Shown: positions 36,740-63,933 of the stretch, piece after piece
Numbering within the stretch: position 1 is the first letter of the stretch
Layout: each line of letters starts with the position of its first letter
NCBI GenBank assembly: GCA_048940925.1
Contig: JBHLOC010000001.1
Location: forward strand, 128,001-192,000
Length of the DNA: 64,000 nt
Direction: 5' to 3'
DNA from: Promethearchaeota archaeon
GTDB lineage: Archaea > Asgardarchaeota > Lokiarchaeia > Sigyniarchaeales > SOKP01
The notes under the pieces: model-generated
Database searches by the model: none
Told to the model about the DNA's origin: nothing
Seen by the model: the letters and a program-made list of their open reading frames with translations, nothing else
Made by a program: the position numbers and the translations under genes

Positions 36740-36832
36740 AAGAATTAAAGACTAATATTTCTACTAAATTATGATTTTTACTGGATTTATAAAATCAAAA
36801 TAAAAAAAGTTAAAAAAACAATTCAATAAAAT

Positions 36833-44495: not shown

Positions 44496-44993
44496 TTGTC
44501 CTATAATAATATGAGTGGGGTAAAAGATTTCCGTTACTTGATTCCTGAGAGTTTATTTAAGGAAATCACACAAAAAGCTGCAGAAGAATATCCTAATATA
44601 ATTCATGGATGGCTTTTTGCTGATCGTAAGGAGAATTTCGGCATATGTACACAATTTATAATGAATCCAGATTTAAGAAAAACGAAAGTTCATGTAAAGC
44701 CGCGGAGTTGGATGAGATATAAAAAATCGAAAATCTATAATATGCGAAAGTTTAAACAGGAGCTAGGAGTCGACATTGTATGGCAATGGCACTCTCATCC
44801 AACAGGTCAAGAGAAACTTCACGCTATTGACAAGAGAATATTGAAATATTTGTCCAACGGTGTGATGATAATTGTTGTGCCCCCTGTAGAAGAGAAAGAT
44901 CAAAAAGCGCATCTCGTAGGCTGGTATTACGACAAACGGTATACTAAAAAGCCAATCATAGAAAAAATGGTTTTTGAAATAATCTCCGAATAA
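44496..44993 (+). CDS. JAB/MPN (JAMM) domain protein
   Basis: WHSHP-x9-D (HxH-x10-D spacing). Confidence 0.8.
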   Translation: MSYNNMSGVKDFRYLIPESLFKEITQKAAEEYPNIIHGWLFADRKENFGICTQFIMNPDLRKTKVHVKPRSWMRYKKSKIYNMRKFKQELGVDIVWQWHSHPTGQEKLHAIDKRILKYLSNGVMIIVVPPVEEKDQKAHLVGWYYDKRYTKKPIIEKMVFEIISE

Positions 44994-53947: not shown

Positions 53948-55613
53948 TCAATGATTTAGAGTTTTAGAGACATATACACCATCTATTTTATATCCCATTT
54001 CATAGAACCAATCTCTTGCTCCAATACCACTTATTACTACTAGTTTTTTTGCTCCAAATTCTTCAAATGAGGTTTTTTCAGCATTTTCCATTAATAATTT
54101 TCCATATCCTCTATGTTGTATTTGAATAAGTCGCTTGGGTTTCAAGTCTTTTGGAACCATTTCTCCAACTACCTTGATTTCCCTTACGATTAATGTTTTT
54201 CCATCATTTATTTCAGGTCTGTGGGCAAATTCAGAAGGCTTTCTTAAGCGTAAATATCCAATTAAATAATTTTCGATTTTATTCTCATAGGATAAGAATA
54301 TTTCTTTTCCCTGAGAAGCATCATAATCAAAACGATATAGTTTTATTTTATCAAAGGATTTCTCATCAATAAGTTCCTCTTTCTTACTAATCCCATATTC
54401 TCTACATCTAATACATTTGCAAGTTTCATCCCAACTTTTTAGTCTCTCTTGGACTAACTGTCTTAAATTGCTATTTTTACAACCTGCTTTGATTAATGTC
54501 GCAGGTATATCTCTCATTATTCTTTGAATTCTCACATAGGATGGAAGGTTTTTTTTAGCCATTGCAATTAATTCAATTAAGTCTTCATCCGAGTATGGTA
54601 AGTAATTTCCATTTTTCCACCAATTATGCAATTCAGTACCATCTATCACGAGAGTAGGATAAATTTTTAACATATCAGGTCGATAATCTGGATTAGAAAA
54701 TAAGCTATCAAATAATTTTAAATCTTTTTGAATAGTTGAACCGGGTAAATTTGGCATTACATGTGCATTGATTTTTAATCCTGCATCTTTAGCAATCCTT
54801 ATCGATTCAATGCTATCAGCAGTTGTATGCCCTCTTTTCACTAGATCATAGATTTCATTATAGACTGTTTGAATACCAATTTCGACTCGCGTTGTTCCAA
54901 AATTTAACATATTATCTACATGTGTCTCTTTACAATAATCTGGTCTTGTCTCAACGGTAATACCTATAACCCTTCTTTTAGATTTTTCTGCTAATAGCTT
55001 AGCTTCTTCCAAACTGCCTGTTTTTTGTTTTATTATTCCCTCTAATGCCCCTTTAACGAAATGTGTTTGATAATCTGGATCAGTTGATAAGAAAGTCCCA
55101 CCCATTATAATAAGTTCAATCTTTTATGGTGGCAAACAATTAAGCGTATACCATGTCCACTTTATGCCCAATGGCTTCTAAATCTTTTATTCGAGATTGA
55201 ACTTGCTTATAAGGATCATAATTGTTATGGATTGATCTCATCGCCGCTGGTTCTCTTCCTGTATATGATTGGGCAACTTTTTCCCCTGGTTGGGAGTTTA
55301 CTCCAGGACAGTATATACATGTTCCGGGACAAGGAAGAGGTTTAGTCATAATTGCTATTACTGAAACTCCTGAAATTGTTCTTGTTGTTCTTCTCTTCAA
55401 AAATTTATTGATAATCTCTTTTTCTTCATTTGTTGCATGGTGTATAATACTGGCATTTTTTATAACTCGATTATAATTATACTTTTTTCCAATTTGTCCT
55501 TTAAGGTTTGTTATTTTTCTGCGAGAAGTTTTAGGATTTTCTAAAAGATACTCAATTATTTCTCTTGCTATTTTCTTTACTATACTTGAGTTTATATTAT
55601 CTGATTGTTCCAT
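53948..55613 (-). CDS. elp3: tRNA U34 acetyltransferase Elp3, two exons (55155..55613 + 53948..55123), 544 aa after splicing
   Basis: Radical-SAM CPGTCIYC and QSYTGREP in exon 1; MGGTF, ETRPD, KIYPT, QHRGYG, ISGIGAR in exon 2; junction restores GHKVD|KIELIIMGGTF. Confidence 0.93.
55124..55154 (-). other. 31-nt BHB-type intron in elp3 mRNA
   Basis: GUGG/CCAU central helix, bulges AC^A and AA^A, inner stem UGGUAUACG/UGUUUGCCA; insert carries a stop and a frameshift. Confidence 0.85.
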
Positions 55614-61536: not shown

Positions 61537-62235
61537 ATGACAAAAACTGAGATTAGAAATCATCCAAAATTTTCTAATGTTTTTATATCCGGCCCTCGAG
61601 AAAAATTAACACTGTATACTAAAAACCTAGATCAAGGTTTTAAGGTTTATGGTGAGAAATTAATAGAATATAAAGGAGAGGAATATAGAGAATGGGATCC
61701 ATTTAGGAGTAAACTAGCAGCTCTAATCTTAGAAAACCCTACTAGAAATTTCTTATCTATTGATTTTAATTGTTTGTATTTGGGTGCATCATCAGGGACA
61801 ACAATCTCCCACCTTTCAGATATCATACCCACAGGAATTATATATGGTGTTGAATTTTCTGAAAGAAGCATCAGACAATTAATTCAGAACACATCAAATA
61901 GAAAGAATATTATTCCAATATTAGGAGATGCTAGAAATCCTGAAAGTTATGCAAAATCAATTTTTACTAAAGTTGATTTAATTTACCAAGATGTTGCTCA
62001 ACCTAATCAAACCGAGATAGCAATTCGTAATTGTAATTATTATTTAAAAGATGGTGGAATATTAATTCTTGCTATAAAATCCCAATCTATAGATAGTATT
62101 CAAAAATCTGAACTTGTTTATGCTAAAGAACAATCTACTCTCAAAAAAGCAGATTATAATCTCATAGAAAGTGTAAATATACATAAATTTGCCGCTAATC
62201 ATATTATATTGATTGCAGAAAAAACATTCACTTAA
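61537..62235 (+). CDS. flpA: Fibrillarin-like rRNA/tRNA 2'-O-methyltransferase
   Basis: VYGE, WDPFRSKLAA, LYLGASSGTT, QDVAQP. Confidence 0.96.
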   Translation: MTKTEIRNHPKFSNVFISGPREKLTLYTKNLDQGFKVYGEKLIEYKGEEYREWDPFRSKLAALILENPTRNFLSIDFNCLYLGASSGTTISHLSDIIPTGIIYGVEFSERSIRQLIQNTSNRKNIIPILGDARNPESYAKSIFTKVDLIYQDVAQPNQTEIAIRNCNYYLKDGGILILAIKSQSIDSIQKSELVYAKEQSTLKKADYNLIESVNIHKFAANHIILIAEKTFT

Positions 62236-62927
62236 AAGAATTCAGTTATTTTTCTATTTGCCACCTCTTCATTTAATATATTTTTAGTTGTATCCCATGA
62301 TTTCCTTGCAATTTGTGGTGCTTTTTTATGTTTTTTTACCCATACTCGAAGAAATTCTATAGTTGTTACATCAGAGGGATATCCCGATCCAAATTCTCCA
62401 TACTTTTTTTTTAATTCGTCTATTGAGGTGTCTCTTTTATTTTTTGCAATTATAGATCCAGCTGAAACTATTGGATAAATATCATCAGCTTTATGTTTCG
62501 AAATTATTCTTTTAGGTTTGTAATTTAGTAATTTTTTGATTGACCGACCAAATCTTTCTTCATTTACATCAGCAGCATCAACATATATGATGTCTGGTTT
62601 TAAAATATTAATAATTTCAGCCATTTTTAATTCTTCAAGTCGATTCATCGTAATATTCTTTTCCTTTCTCTGATCTATCTCTTCAGGATCTACTATGATA
62701 ATTTTATAGGAATAACAATTGTTTTTGATAAGTTTAGATAATTGACTCCTCCTTTTGGTTGATAATTTTTTTGAATCTTTAACCCCAATTTCAGATAAAA
62801 ATTCTAATTTATGATTAGTAAAACAGACGCCACAAATAACCATAGGACCTAAGACAGAGCCTTTTAACATATAATTCGATCTGAATTATTTTCTGCCAGC
62901 CTCGTCTATACCACAAATTACTTCCAA
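62232..62927 (-). CDS. rnhB: Ribonuclease HII, two exons (62893..62927 + 62232..62862), 221 aa after splicing
   Basis: Exon 1 from TTG gives LEVICGIDEAG; junction restores DEAGR|GSVLGPMV; exon 2 has DSKKL, HKAD, VSAGSIIAK, GSGYPSD. Confidence 0.93.
62863..62892 (-). other. 30-nt BHB intron in rnhB mRNA
   Basis: UGGC/GUUA central helix, bulges AG^A and AA^A, inner stem AAAUAAUUC/GAAUUAUAU, outer GAGGC/GGCUC; in-frame UAA inside. Confidence 0.87.
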
Positions 62928-62934
62928 CTTTTCA

Positions 62935-63933
62935 TCAAGATTCTTGTATGAGTTCAATGAATTCTTCCTCATCATCAATTTTTTCTAAATTCTTTATTTT
63001 AACAATATGTATATCATCTTTTTTTATTAAGGCTGGAATTTTTACATGGTTATTGACAATAAATAGAGCTGTTTTATGGAATAACTCATTAAACATCTTT
63101 AAACATCGAAAATTCATTTGATTTATATTTTTCTGCTCCTCAGAGATAGCTGAAAACAGAGGATAAAAGCCCTCTTCAGTTTTTTCAATCGAAGAAAACA
63201 ATGATAATTTAAAGGGTATTGAGCCTTTCTTATACCAATATGCGGACAATCCTATATCGTCTATTATTGAATTTACACGTGATTCAAAATCACTTAACTC
63301 TTTTTCTTCTTGATTTTCAATATCTCTTTGATGAGAATTAATTTTCCATTTAAAGATATTAATCTTTTTGAAAATTTCATTATTATCTAGTATATTTAAT
63401 ATTTTTATGGCAATTTGATCTGAGGGTCGCATACTTTCGTTTTCATAAGCACTTATTGTCCTCTTAGTAACGCCTAGTTTTTCAGATAATTCCTTTCTTG
63501 TTATTAATTGTTTTTCTCTTATTGTTTTCATCAATATACCGTCTAAAAAGACTACACCGCCACCTCTTCTTGCTAAAATATAGGGGTATATATTTTTATT
63601 TAGAATTTTCTCAAAAGTATTTAATGTTATAAAAGGCAAACCTTCTCTTACATATATTGTATTATCCTCTAAGTTTTGGTATCGATTCTTGATGCCAATC
63701 AATAATGGTTTTGATTTTAATATAAATGATAATTGTTTAATATCTCGGATGAGGTCAGGATTTAAATTATCTATATTAGGAAAGACTTTAAGGCTAAAAA
63801 CTTGATCATTCTTTTTTACTAATAAATCAAAACAAAATTTTGTCTTTTTGCTAGCAAAATTTCCTATATTTAAGGTTTCAAAGTTCGCCTTCTTCAGTAA
63901 ATCATCAATCTTCTCTATGACTGTACTTATCAT
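62935..63933 (-). CDS. Archaeal HTH transcriptional regulator (COG1395-like)
   Basis: CFDLL, KVFPNID, ARRGG, Cro/C1 HTH LSEKLGVTKRTISAYE. Confidence 0.85.
   Translation of the reverse strand: MISTVIEKIDDLLKKANFETLNIGNFASKKTKFCFDLLVKKNDQVFSLKVFPNIDNLNPDLIRDIKQLSFILKSKPLLIGIKNRYQNLEDNTIYVREGLPFITLNTFEKILNKNIYPYILARRGGGVVFLDGILMKTIREKQLITRKELSEKLGVTKRTISAYENESMRPSDQIAIKILNILDNNEIFKKINIFKWKINSHQRDIENQEEKELSDFESRVNSIIDDIGLSAYWYKKGSIPFKLSLFSSIEKTEEGFYPLFSAISEEQKNINQMNFRCLKMFNELFHKTALFIVNNHVKIPALIKKDDIHIVKIKNLEKIDDEEEFIELIQES

What the first reader, a model, noticed from the sequence alone, without database searches (positions are those of the whole stretch)
62863..62892. 30-nt BHB intron splits the catalytic DEAGRG motif of RNase HII
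The tracked ORF (MLKGSVLGP...) lacks the essential DEAG acidic residues, which lie just upstream: TTG GAA GTA ATT TGT GGT ATA GAC GAG GCT GGC AG. The pre-mRNA folds as GAGGC-UGGC-AG^A-AAAUAAUUC-AGAUC-GAAUUAUAU-GUUA-AA^A-GGCUC, a 4-bp helix between two 3-nt bulges. Cutting after the second nucleotide of each bulge gives GCU GGC AGA GGC UCU = A-G-R-G-S, the canonical GIDEAGRGSVLGP. Unspliced RNA stops at UAA after 13 codons.
Basis: partly seen in the sequence, partly recalled or inferred. Interest (0 to 1): 0.9.

Follow-up and report, generated by a model that had tools for sequence, protein, structure and literature searches.

The report
tRNA-type mini-intron inside RNase HII gene
The only RNase HII gene of this Asgard archaeon is interrupted in its catalytic motif by a 30-base insert shaped like a tRNA intron, which comparative evidence says is cut out of the mRNA, making it a new example of a very rare archaeal protein-gene intron.

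Summary

- **The insert:** On the minus strand, rnhB reads ...ICGIDEAGR / K*FRSNYMLK / GSVLGPMV.... Thirty bases (62863-62892) with an in-frame TAA sit where solved RNase HII proteins have no residues.
- **Conservation:** I read the same insert, always with an in-frame stop, in 51 distinct sequences from related genomes. About 77 of 128 genomes of the same family appear to carry it.
- **Not translated:** Insert lengths are 28, 29, 30 or 31 nt in Asgard archaea and 35-47 nt at the same codon in some Thermoplasmatota. Eight of the 51 lengths are not multiples of three.
- **Exact loss:** Close relatives that lack the insert read DEAG-R-G without a break.
- **Structure:** The 4-bp central helix pairs in about 94% of cases, against 24-51% in shifted registers, with many compensatory changes. 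Bulge 1 is nearly always AGA, and the interior hairpin is kept even where its sequence is unrelated.
- **Enzymes:** The genome encodes two EndA paralogues, consistent with the (alpha-beta)2 form, and RtcB.
- **Context:** purA and rpoN in the same genome carry similar 31-nt inserts.
- **Earlier notes:** The scan had already noted this rnhB intron on other genomes, unchecked.
- **Literature:** The library searched reports such splicing only for cbf5 and HVO_1309.

The parts
62893..62927 (-). rnhB exon 1: TTG start (62927-62925) through the first two bases of the Arg codon. It encodes M-E-V-I-C-G-I-D-E-A-G-(R), including the catalytic Asp and Glu. The true start is uncertain: in-frame TTG/ATG codons lie upstream as far as 62978 and overlap the end of the upstream HTH gene.
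   Evidence: ICGIDEAG is invariant in relatives despite synonymous changes (GAC/GAT, GCT/GCG/GCC/GCA, GGT/GGC/GGG).
62863..62892 (-). 30-nt BHB intron (AAAAUAAUUCAGAUCGAAUUAUAUGUUAAA). Because of a repeated A, the junction could equally lie one base further 3', giving the same protein.
   Evidence: Exact 10-residue gap against solved RNase HII. Inserts of 28-31 nt at the same site in Asgard relatives and 35-47 nt in Thermoplasmatota. Exact absence in intronless relatives.
62232..62862 (-). rnhB exon 2: third base of the Arg codon, then GSVLGPMV... to the stop codon (62234-62232). It holds the remaining catalytic Asp residues (VDAADV, HKADD) and a C-terminal PIP-like KITEFF.
   Evidence: An intact frame of about 209 codons is kept in all relatives read.
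62899..62907 (-). Outer helix h, 5' strand (exon 1, AGACGAGGC). It pairs with 62852-62861.
   Evidence: Present in the minimum-energy fold. 87.5% of cells pair across 36 sequences.
62895..62898 (-). Central 4-bp helix H, 5' strand (UGGC: third base of the Ala codon plus the Gly codon).
   Evidence: Pairs with 62865-62868. About 94% paired in 51 distinct sequences against 24-51% in shifted registers; 0 of 2000 shuffles reach the observed value. Pair 4 is seen as U-G, C-G, U-A and G-C.
62892..62894 (-). Bulge 1 (A-G^A). The predicted 5' cut lies between 62893 and 62892.
   Evidence: AGA in 47 of 51 distinct sequences; AGU in 3; AAA in 1, which gives Lys after splicing as in intronless Thermoplasmatota.
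62869..62891 (-). Inner hairpin h': stems 62883-62891 and 62869-62877, loop 62878-62882. It contains the in-frame TAA (62888-62886) and the non-conserved ATG (62870-62868) that gene callers use as the start.
   Evidence: 90.7% paired, 4 pairs with changes on both sides. A hairpin is kept in genera whose interior sequence is unrelated. An in-frame ATG near the 3' end of the insert (within four codons of exon 2) is found in about half of the distinct sequences.
62865..62868 (-). Central helix H, 3' strand (GUUA, in the intron).
62862..62864 (-). Bulge 2 (A-A^A). The predicted 3' cut lies between 62863 and 62862.
   Evidence: AAA in 34 sequences, ACA in 7, AUA in 4, AGA in 2, others once each. 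The last base is always A or G, so the spliced codon is AGA/AGG (Arg) or AAA (Lys).
62852..62861 (-). Outer helix h, 3' strand (exon 2, GGCUCUGUCU), with one bulged U and one G.G mismatch.

Best explanation
The 30 nt at 62863-62892 (minus strand) are a bulge-helix-bulge (BHB) intron in the pre-mRNA of rnhB, the genome's only RNase HII gene.

Proposed mechanism:
1. The transcript folds so that exon 1 (the Asp-Glu-Ala codons) pairs with exon 2 (the Gly-Ser-Val codons).
2. The last four exon-1 bases before the AG pair with the four intron bases that precede bulge 2.
3. The interior of the intron forms a hairpin.
4. This displays two 3-nt bulges (AG^A and AA^A) on opposite strands, four base pairs apart.
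5. The tRNA-splicing endonuclease EndA, here apparently the broad-specificity (alpha-beta)2 form, cuts after the second base of each bulge.
6. RtcB joins the exons to give GCU GGC AGA GGC UCU, that is GIDEAGRGSVLGP, and an active-site-complete enzyme of about 221 residues.

Unspliced RNA ends at UAA after 13 codons, so it cannot give an enzyme with the catalytic Asp and Glu.

Shown: the anatomy, its conservation, covariation, exact loss in relatives, and the presence of the enzyme genes. Inferred: that EndA and RtcB are the enzymes acting here, the exact cut positions, and that splicing is efficient.
For: 1. An exact 10-codon insert with a stop lies inside DEAG|RG relative to Pfam RNase_HII and PDB 2dfe/1io2.
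2. rnhB is single-copy in the genome.
3. The same insert is present in 23 of 24 sampled species of the genus. Family-wide, about 77 of 128 genomes show a stop inside a full-length match, my hand tally from the table. Exon 2 is an intact frame at 57-85% identity.
4. The 51 distinct inserts all have an in-frame stop (TAA, TAG or TGA, sometimes two). Lengths of 28, 29, 31, 35, 37, 44 and 47 nt (8 sequences) shift the frame, so the insert cannot be translated through.
5. Intronless alleles show the exact predicted junction. They include L070, nested in an intron-bearing clade, and G100 within the genus.
6. On 36 aligned Asgard sequences, 90.1% of cells pair against 23-44% when partners are slid. 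Seven pairs have changes on both sides, and 0 of 500 shuffles reach the observed value on every measure.
7. Over all 51 sequences the central helix pairs in about 94% of cells against 24-51% in other registers, with 26 different helix versions such as UGGU/ACCA, UGGG/CCUA, CGGG/CCCG and AGGG/CCCU.
8. Genera with unrelated interior sequence keep a hairpin and the bulges.
9. Thermoplasmatota inserts at the same codon fold into strong structures, z = -2.7 to -5.1. In L097 the minimum-energy fold has a 3-nt bulge, a 4-bp helix and a 4-nt unpaired stretch at bulge 2, close to the canonical motif.
10. Two EndA paralogues (open frames of 205 and 209 aa on separate contigs) and RtcB are encoded. Asgard EndA is reported as the (alpha-beta)2 type with the L1 loop linked to broad specificity (PMC5829648).
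11. purA and rpoN in the same genome carry 31-nt inserts whose removal restores WGDEGKGK and RMIVSHVDLIDELL.
Against: - No RNA evidence was obtained.
- In this genome the central helix is weak (one U-A, two G-U, one C-G). The full BHB conformation is 4 kcal/mol above the minimum-energy fold.
- The outer helix has a G.G mismatch and a bulged U, so the motif is relaxed rather than canonical.
- In 13 of about 204 cells the central helix has a mismatch (for example G.A or G.G at pair 2).
- Sequences from related genomes are not independent, so the shuffle counts overstate significance.
- The exact cut site cannot be told from a site one base away.
Confidence: 0.9

Rival explanations
1. rnhB is a pseudogene, or the insert is an assembly error, and is never removed.
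For: An in-frame stop splits the catalytic motif. The genome is a metagenome-assembled bin with 8% contamination.
Against: The same insert occurs in dozens of independently assembled genomes, including closed chromosomes. Exon 2 shows no other lesion at 57-85% identity. Exon 1 is kept under synonymous change. The insert shows compensatory changes. It is the only RNase HII gene in the genome.
Confidence: 0.02
2. The insert stays in the mRNA and is handled by the ribosome, through stop-codon readthrough, frameshifting or gene-60-like bypassing.
For: 30 nt is a multiple of three. A hairpin and a nearby stop resemble bypass or recoding signals.
Against: Three different stop codons are used, often two per insert, and 8 insert lengths shift the frame. 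There are no matched take-off and landing codons that would restore R-G. The conservation pattern is base pairing, not codons. Bypassing does not explain the two 3-nt bulges spaced 4 bp apart.
Confidence: 0.02
3. The gene makes an N-terminally truncated protein from the internal ATG (MLKGSVLGP...), either inactive or complemented by a separate exon-1 peptide.
For: Gene callers predict this ORF.
Against: An in-frame ATG near the 3' end of the insert (within four codons of exon 2) is found in only about half of the distinct sequences. For example, the inserts of L016, L019 and L022 contain no ATG at all. The truncated product lacks the catalytic Asp and Glu. Exon 1 would give a peptide of only 13 residues, yet it is invariant.
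Confidence: 0.03
4. The insert is removed from the RNA, but not by EndA and RtcB: by another nuclease and ligase, or by self-cleavage.
For: The enzymes were not tested. In this genome the BHB is relaxed.
Against: The conserved features are exactly those that define EndA substrates. The Thermoplasmatota hosts have the alpha'2 form of EndA (two endonuclease domains in one frame of about 350 aa), which is reported to cleave only canonical motifs (PMC5829648). Their inserts form strong exon-exon and central helices, which is what that form would need. At 28-47 nt the insert is far too small for a group I or group II intron.
Confidence: 0.03

Closest known systems
cbf5 pre-mRNA intron of Crenarchaeota (Desulfurococcales and Sulfolobales; PMC2738675 and the work it cites)
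   Same: A short BHB-type intron inside a protein-coding gene. The motif is relaxed. The hosts have an (alpha-beta)2 EndA. Distribution is patchy, with lineage-specific exact losses, and automatic annotation mis-calls the gene.
   Different: A different gene (RNase HII rather than a pseudouridine synthase) and different phyla (Asgard/Promethearchaeota and Thermoplasmatota). The intron lies 35 nt into the coding region and splits the catalytic DEAG|RG motif. Splicing was shown experimentally for cbf5 but not here.
Archaeal tRNA and rRNA BHB introns and processing stems cut by EndA and joined by RtcB
   Same: Two 3-nt bulges on opposite strands, a 4-bp central helix, flanking helices, and cuts after the second bulge base. 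The size is similar to the short introns reported to heavily interrupt Asgard tRNA genes (bioRxiv 10.64898/2026.10.13.758758).
   Different: The exons are coding sequence. The outer helix and half of the central helix must therefore be built from codons of a conserved motif, and only synonymous positions are free to co-vary.
HVO_1309 mRNA of Haloferax volcanii (PMC7714728; discussed in PMC10485636)
   Same: An mRNA cleaved by an archaeal splicing endonuclease, with the spliced form seen in RNA-seq.
   Different: It is a single case in one species and not within a conserved catalytic motif. Here the intron is conserved across more than 70 genomes.
HAC1/XBP1 unconventional mRNA splicing in eukaryotes (Ire1 plus tRNA ligase or RtcB)
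   Same: Spliceosome-independent removal of a short structured intron from an mRNA, followed by ligation with RtcB or a tRNA ligase. Unspliced mRNA gives no functional product. This comparison rests on general knowledge.
   Different: The endonuclease is Ire1, not EndA/TSEN. Its substrate is two stem-loops, not a BHB, and it is stress-regulated. No regulation is known here.

Membership tests
Archaeal BHB intron (EndA substrate) | [quoted passage not shown] | tested here: met
   Geometry is present at 62862-62898. The central helix pairs in about 94% of cells in 51 distinct sequences against 24-51% in shifted registers, with 26 helix versions. In this genome the helix is weak.
Archaeal BHB intron (EndA substrate) | Flanking helices on both sides (hBHBh') | tested here: met
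   The outer exon-exon helix (87.5% paired) and the inner hairpin (90.7% paired) are both in the minimum-energy fold. The outer helix has a G.G mismatch and a bulged U, so the motif is relaxed.
Archaeal BHB intron (EndA substrate) | Cutting within the bulges and joining gives the functional product | tested here: met
   The predicted junction equals the sequence of intronless orthologues, GCN GGN AG|A GGN. It restores the DEAGRG motif aligned to PDB structures.
Archaeal BHB intron (EndA substrate) | The host encodes the splicing endonuclease and RtcB ligase | tested here: met
   PF01974 is found twice (102 and 70 bits, on separate contigs) and PF01139 once (556 bits) in the genome.
Archaeal BHB intron (EndA substrate) | Excision observed in RNA (junction reads, circular intron, or in vitro cleavage) | not testable with these tools
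No RNA data were available.
RNase HII (Pfam PF01351) | Profile match and the catalytic Asp-Glu-Asp-Asp residues | tested here: met
   150 bits over the full profile. DE of DEAG lies in exon 1. DAAD and KADD in exon 2 align to T. kodakarensis RNase HII. The set is complete only after removal of the insert.
cbf5-type pre-mRNA intron | Located inside a protein-coding frame, with lineage-specific presence and absence | tested here: met
   Polymorphic within four genera of the family. At least 10 state changes are needed on the protein tree, and at least 5 are forced by well-supported branches.

The most novel reading that the evidence does not exclude
The rnhB intron is one visible member of a genome-wide set of 28-32-nt tRNA-type introns in protein-coding genes of this Asgard family. 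rnhB, purA and rpoN were checked here. elp3, aIF2-gamma, mvk and others are noted by the scan but were not fully checked by me. If so, EndA and RtcB act as a general mRNA-splicing system in close prokaryotic relatives of eukaryotes.

The occurrence of an intron at the identical codon and phase in Thermoplasmatota would then mean one of two things. Either the intron, or the gene carrying it, has moved between phyla, or the DEAG|RG coding sequence is a preferred landing site because it is self-complementary.
Probability: 0.6. Interest if true: 0.9.

Novelty: new member of a known kind. Interest (0 to 1): 0.8.

Why it matters
**How rare this is.** In the library searched, endonuclease-dependent splicing of archaeal mRNAs is documented for only two genes, cbf5 and HVO_1309. 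A 2023 review expected more to be found (PMC10485636).

**What this case adds.** It is a well-conserved example in a core DNA-replication and repair enzyme. It occurs in two phyla, one with the (alpha-beta)2 EndA and one with the alpha'2 EndA, and it shows repeated exact losses.

**Practical consequences.**
- Standard gene callers annotate a catalytically dead, truncated RNase HII in dozens of Asgard genomes.
- Completeness and metabolic inferences from such genomes will miss genes interrupted in this way.

**Broader question.** Together with similar inserts in other genes of the same genome, it makes one question directly testable: do Asgard archaea routinely splice mRNAs with the tRNA-splicing machinery? 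That bears on ideas about intron tolerance before eukaryotes arose.

Tried and rejected
- **Mobile-element idea:** a blastn-short search of the 30-nt intron against the whole genome found only the locus itself and AT-rich chance matches of 15 nt or less. It is not a repeated element by sequence.
- **ARAGORN for native tRNA introns:** only 34 tRNAs were found, 22 with 'intron' calls of 9-89 nt. This is too noisy to define the genome's own BHB consensus. It fits the reported heavy interruption of Asgard tRNA genes but was not analysed further.
- **elp3 insert (55124-55154):** removing 31 nt restores GHKVDKIELIIMGGTF, and a GUGG/CCAC helix with an ACA bulge is in the minimum-energy fold. I could not place the 3' bulge canonically, and the fold's z-score is only -0.7. 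I left it as a note.
- **First exon-2 query:** it had a frame error and was corrected.
- **Register check:** a loose pattern mis-parsed two long Thermoplasmatota introns, so I repeated it. still includes one mis-parsed intronless sequence (L126), which is why the totals read 52 and 208 rather than 51 and 204.
- **Literature:** six searches found no report of an rnhB intron or of Asgard mRNA BHB introns. The library does not include most subscription-journal papers.

Full report
**1. What is in the sequence**

The gene lies on the minus strand. From TTG at 62927 the frame reads M-E-V-I-C-G-I-D-E-A-G-R-K-stop (TAA at 62888-62886). The same frame then continues F-R-S-N-Y-M-L-K-G-S-V-L-G-P-M-V... 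to a stop at 62234-62232. The ORF list gives only the 212-aa frame that starts at the ATG at 62870 (MLKGSVLGP...), which lacks the Asp and Glu of the RNase HII active site.

Read through with X at the stop, the protein matches Pfam RNase_HII over the whole profile (150 bits). It aligns to Thermococcus kodakarensis RNase HII (2dfe, 1io2) with a gap of exactly ten residues between ...DEAG and RGPVIGPMV. The neighbours are archaeal: Nop5 and fibrillarin converge on rnhB, and an HTH-domain gene lies upstream.

**2. Structure in this genome**

The 61-nt region folds with z = -2.7. The outer exon-exon helix (AGACGAGGC with GGCUCUGUCU) and the inner hairpin are both in the minimum-energy structure. 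The full bulge-helix-bulge (BHB) conformation scores -10.3 kcal/mol against -14.3 for the minimum. On this sequence alone the motif is plausible but relaxed, so the case rests on comparison with relatives.

**3. Relatives**

- A six-frame search of 40 related genomes found the gene in 39. In 23 of 24 species of the same genus the match contains one or two stops. In the other families of the order it contains none.
- Reading the DNA shows the insert at the same place in all of them, always with a stop. The other families read GIDEAGRGPV or GLDEAGRGPV without a break.
- A scan of one genome per species named the organisms as Promethearchaeota (Asgard) metagenome bins. It added further intron-bearing loci and many intronless ones at 63-73% identity.
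- Across the whole family (135 genomes, 13 genera), about 77 of 128 matches carry stops and are about 30 nt longer than the rest. This is my hand tally of the table; I did not read the DNA of every genome.
- Presence is mixed within four genera. In the window's own genus it is nearly universal, with one intronless genome, G100.

**4. The insert is not translated**

- Pooling every locus read gives 51 distinct intron-bearing sequences.
- All of them have an in-frame stop: TAA, TAG or TGA, and sometimes two.
- Lengths are 28, 29 (twice), 30 (42 times) and 31 nt in Asgard, and 35, 37, 44, 45 and 47 nt in Thermoplasmatota.
- Eight lengths are not multiples of three, so exon 2 is out of frame unless the insert is removed.
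- An in-frame ATG near the 3' end of the insert (within four codons of exon 2) is present in only about half of the sequences.
- Exon 1 (ICGIDEAG) is invariant at the protein level while its third codon positions vary.
- Exon 2 is an intact frame of about 209 codons everywhere.
- rnhB is single-copy in the genome.

**5. Exact loss**

Intronless alleles read GCN GGN AG-A GGN, which is the predicted junction. A quick maximum-likelihood tree of 85 exon-2 proteins was built.

- A clade of 57 Asgard sequences has support 97. It holds 37 sequences with the intron and 20 without.
- The earliest branch of that clade (L076) carries the intron.
- An intronless sequence (L070) is nested inside an intron-bearing group.
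- At least 10 changes of state are needed overall, and at least 5 are forced by well-supported branches.
- The tree is unrooted and was built in quick mode, so the order of gains and losses is not settled.

**6. Covariation**

Seven pairs show changes on both sides, and no shuffle in 500 reaches the observed value on any measure (one search gives the same picture for 23 sequences).

I then anchored the central helix on the splice sites and measured it over all sequences, including the length variants and the Thermoplasmatota.

- It pairs in about 94% of cells, against 24-51% in six other registers. No shuffle in 2000 reaches the observed value.
- There are 26 versions of the helix, among them UGGU/ACCA, UGGG/CCUA, UGGG/CCCA, CGGG/CCCG, AGGG/CCCU, AGGG/CCUU, CGGU/GCUG and GGGU/GCCC.
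- The exon side of this helix is the third base of the Ala codon plus the Gly codon. The intron partner therefore tracks synonymous changes in the exon.
- Bulge 1 is AGA in 47 of 51 sequences.
- Bulge 2 always ends in A or G, so the spliced codon is Arg. In L076 it is Lys, which is what intronless Thermoplasmatota have at that position.
- Four genera have interiors unrelated in sequence to the window's intron, yet they keep a hairpin.

These sequences are related to each other, so the shuffle counts are not probabilities. The slid-register controls and the number of independent helix versions carry the argument.

**7. The same site in another phylum**

Five Thermoplasmatota bins carry inserts of 35-47 nt at the identical codon and phase. 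Their folds have z from -2.7 to -5.1 and an exon-exon helix of about ten pairs. In L097 the minimum-energy structure has a 3-nt bulge, a 4-bp helix (GGGU/GCCC) and a 4-nt unpaired stretch at bulge 2, close to the canonical motif.

In four of the five genomes EndA appears as two endonuclease domains in one frame of about 350 aa, the alpha'2 form. It was not found in the fifth. That form is reported to cut only canonical motifs, and the (alpha-beta)2 form to accept relaxed ones (PMC5829648). This fits the stronger helices in Thermoplasmatota and the weaker ones in Asgard. I could not decide whether the shared site reflects common descent, transfer or parallel gain.

**8. Machinery and context**

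- The genome has two separate EndA paralogues (205-aa and 209-aa frames) and one RtcB, about 28 kb beyond the window's end.
- Asgard EndA is described as (alpha-beta)2 with the L1 loop (PMC5829648). A 2026 preprint finds two paralogues in 44 of 60 Asgard genomes and very heavily interrupted tRNA genes (10.64898/2026.10.13.758758).
- Earlier unchecked notes of this scan list similar inserts in other genes of this genome, and the same rnhB insert in other genomes.
- I checked two of those leads by reading the DNA. Removing 31 nt from purA restores WGDEGKGK, with a GGGG/CCCC helix. Removing 31 nt from rpoN restores RMIVSHVDLIDELL.
- The intron has no other copy in the genome.

**9. Comparison with what is known**

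In the library searched, archaeal mRNA splicing by the tRNA endonuclease is documented for cbf5 in Crenarchaeota, including lineage-specific loss (PMC2738675), and for HVO_1309 in Haloferax (PMC7714728, PMC10485636). No paper mentioning an rnhB intron or Asgard mRNA BHB introns was found.

The rnhB intron meets every sequence-level criterion of a BHB intron. It behaves like the cbf5 case in distribution and in being mis-annotated. It differs in host gene, in phyla, and in splitting an active-site motif 35 nt into the coding region.

**10. Verdict**

This is a real feature and almost certainly a BHB intron removed from the rnhB mRNA (confidence 0.9). The missing piece is direct RNA evidence, which could not be obtained here. 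It is a new member of a known but very small class, and probably one of many in this lineage.

Noticed in passing
L087, L090, L097, L102, L107 (Thermoplasmatota bins), just upstream of the exon-2 match: Inserts of 47, 37, 45, 35 and 44 nt sit at exactly the same codon and phase of rnhB as the Asgard intron. They have bulges AGA and AAA/AGA, central helix GGGU/GCCU or GCCC, and a ~10-bp exon-exon helix. Intronless relatives are interspersed with them on the tree.
   Followed up: partly
window 55124-55154 (minus strand): elp3 is split by 31 nt. Removal restores GHKVDKIELIIMGGTF. A GUGG/CCAC helix with a 3-nt ACA bulge is in the minimum-energy fold, but I could not place the 3' bulge canonically and the fold z-score is only -0.7.
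   Followed up: partly
L114 (G000 C41, about 44580-44640) and L115 (G000 C26, about 36790-36825): purA and rpoN of the same genome each carry a 31-nt frameshifting insert with stops. Removal restores WGDEGKGK and RMIVSHVDLIDELL respectively.
   Followed up: partly
L126 (G100, same genus): This is the one intronless rnhB in the genus. It uses CGT for the Arg codon and GAT GAA GCA GGA upstream, unlike all intron-bearing relatives (AGA; GAC GAG GCT GGT). Either the outer and central helix constraints were released after loss, or the allele was replaced.
   Followed up: no
tree: rnhB of the window's family is about as distant from that of other families of its own order (49-51% identity) as from Thermoplasmatota rnhB (44-52%). 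This raises the possibility of transfer of the gene, perhaps with its intron.
   Followed up: no
whole genome (G000): ARAGORN finds only 34 tRNA genes, 22 of them with intron calls, and just one tRNA in the 64-kb window. This suggests many tRNA genes are interrupted at positions standard tools miss.
   Followed up: no
window 62935-62978: The rnhB reading frame is open upstream of TTG 62927 and overlaps the last 44 nt of the upstream HTH-domain gene (62935-63933). The real start of exon 1 is undetermined. Intronless relatives show the same overlap.
   Followed up: no
window 62235-62261 (minus strand): The C-terminus ...NRKITEFF looks like a PCNA-interacting (PIP-like) tail. That would be expected for a functional archaeal RNase HII.
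   Followed up: no
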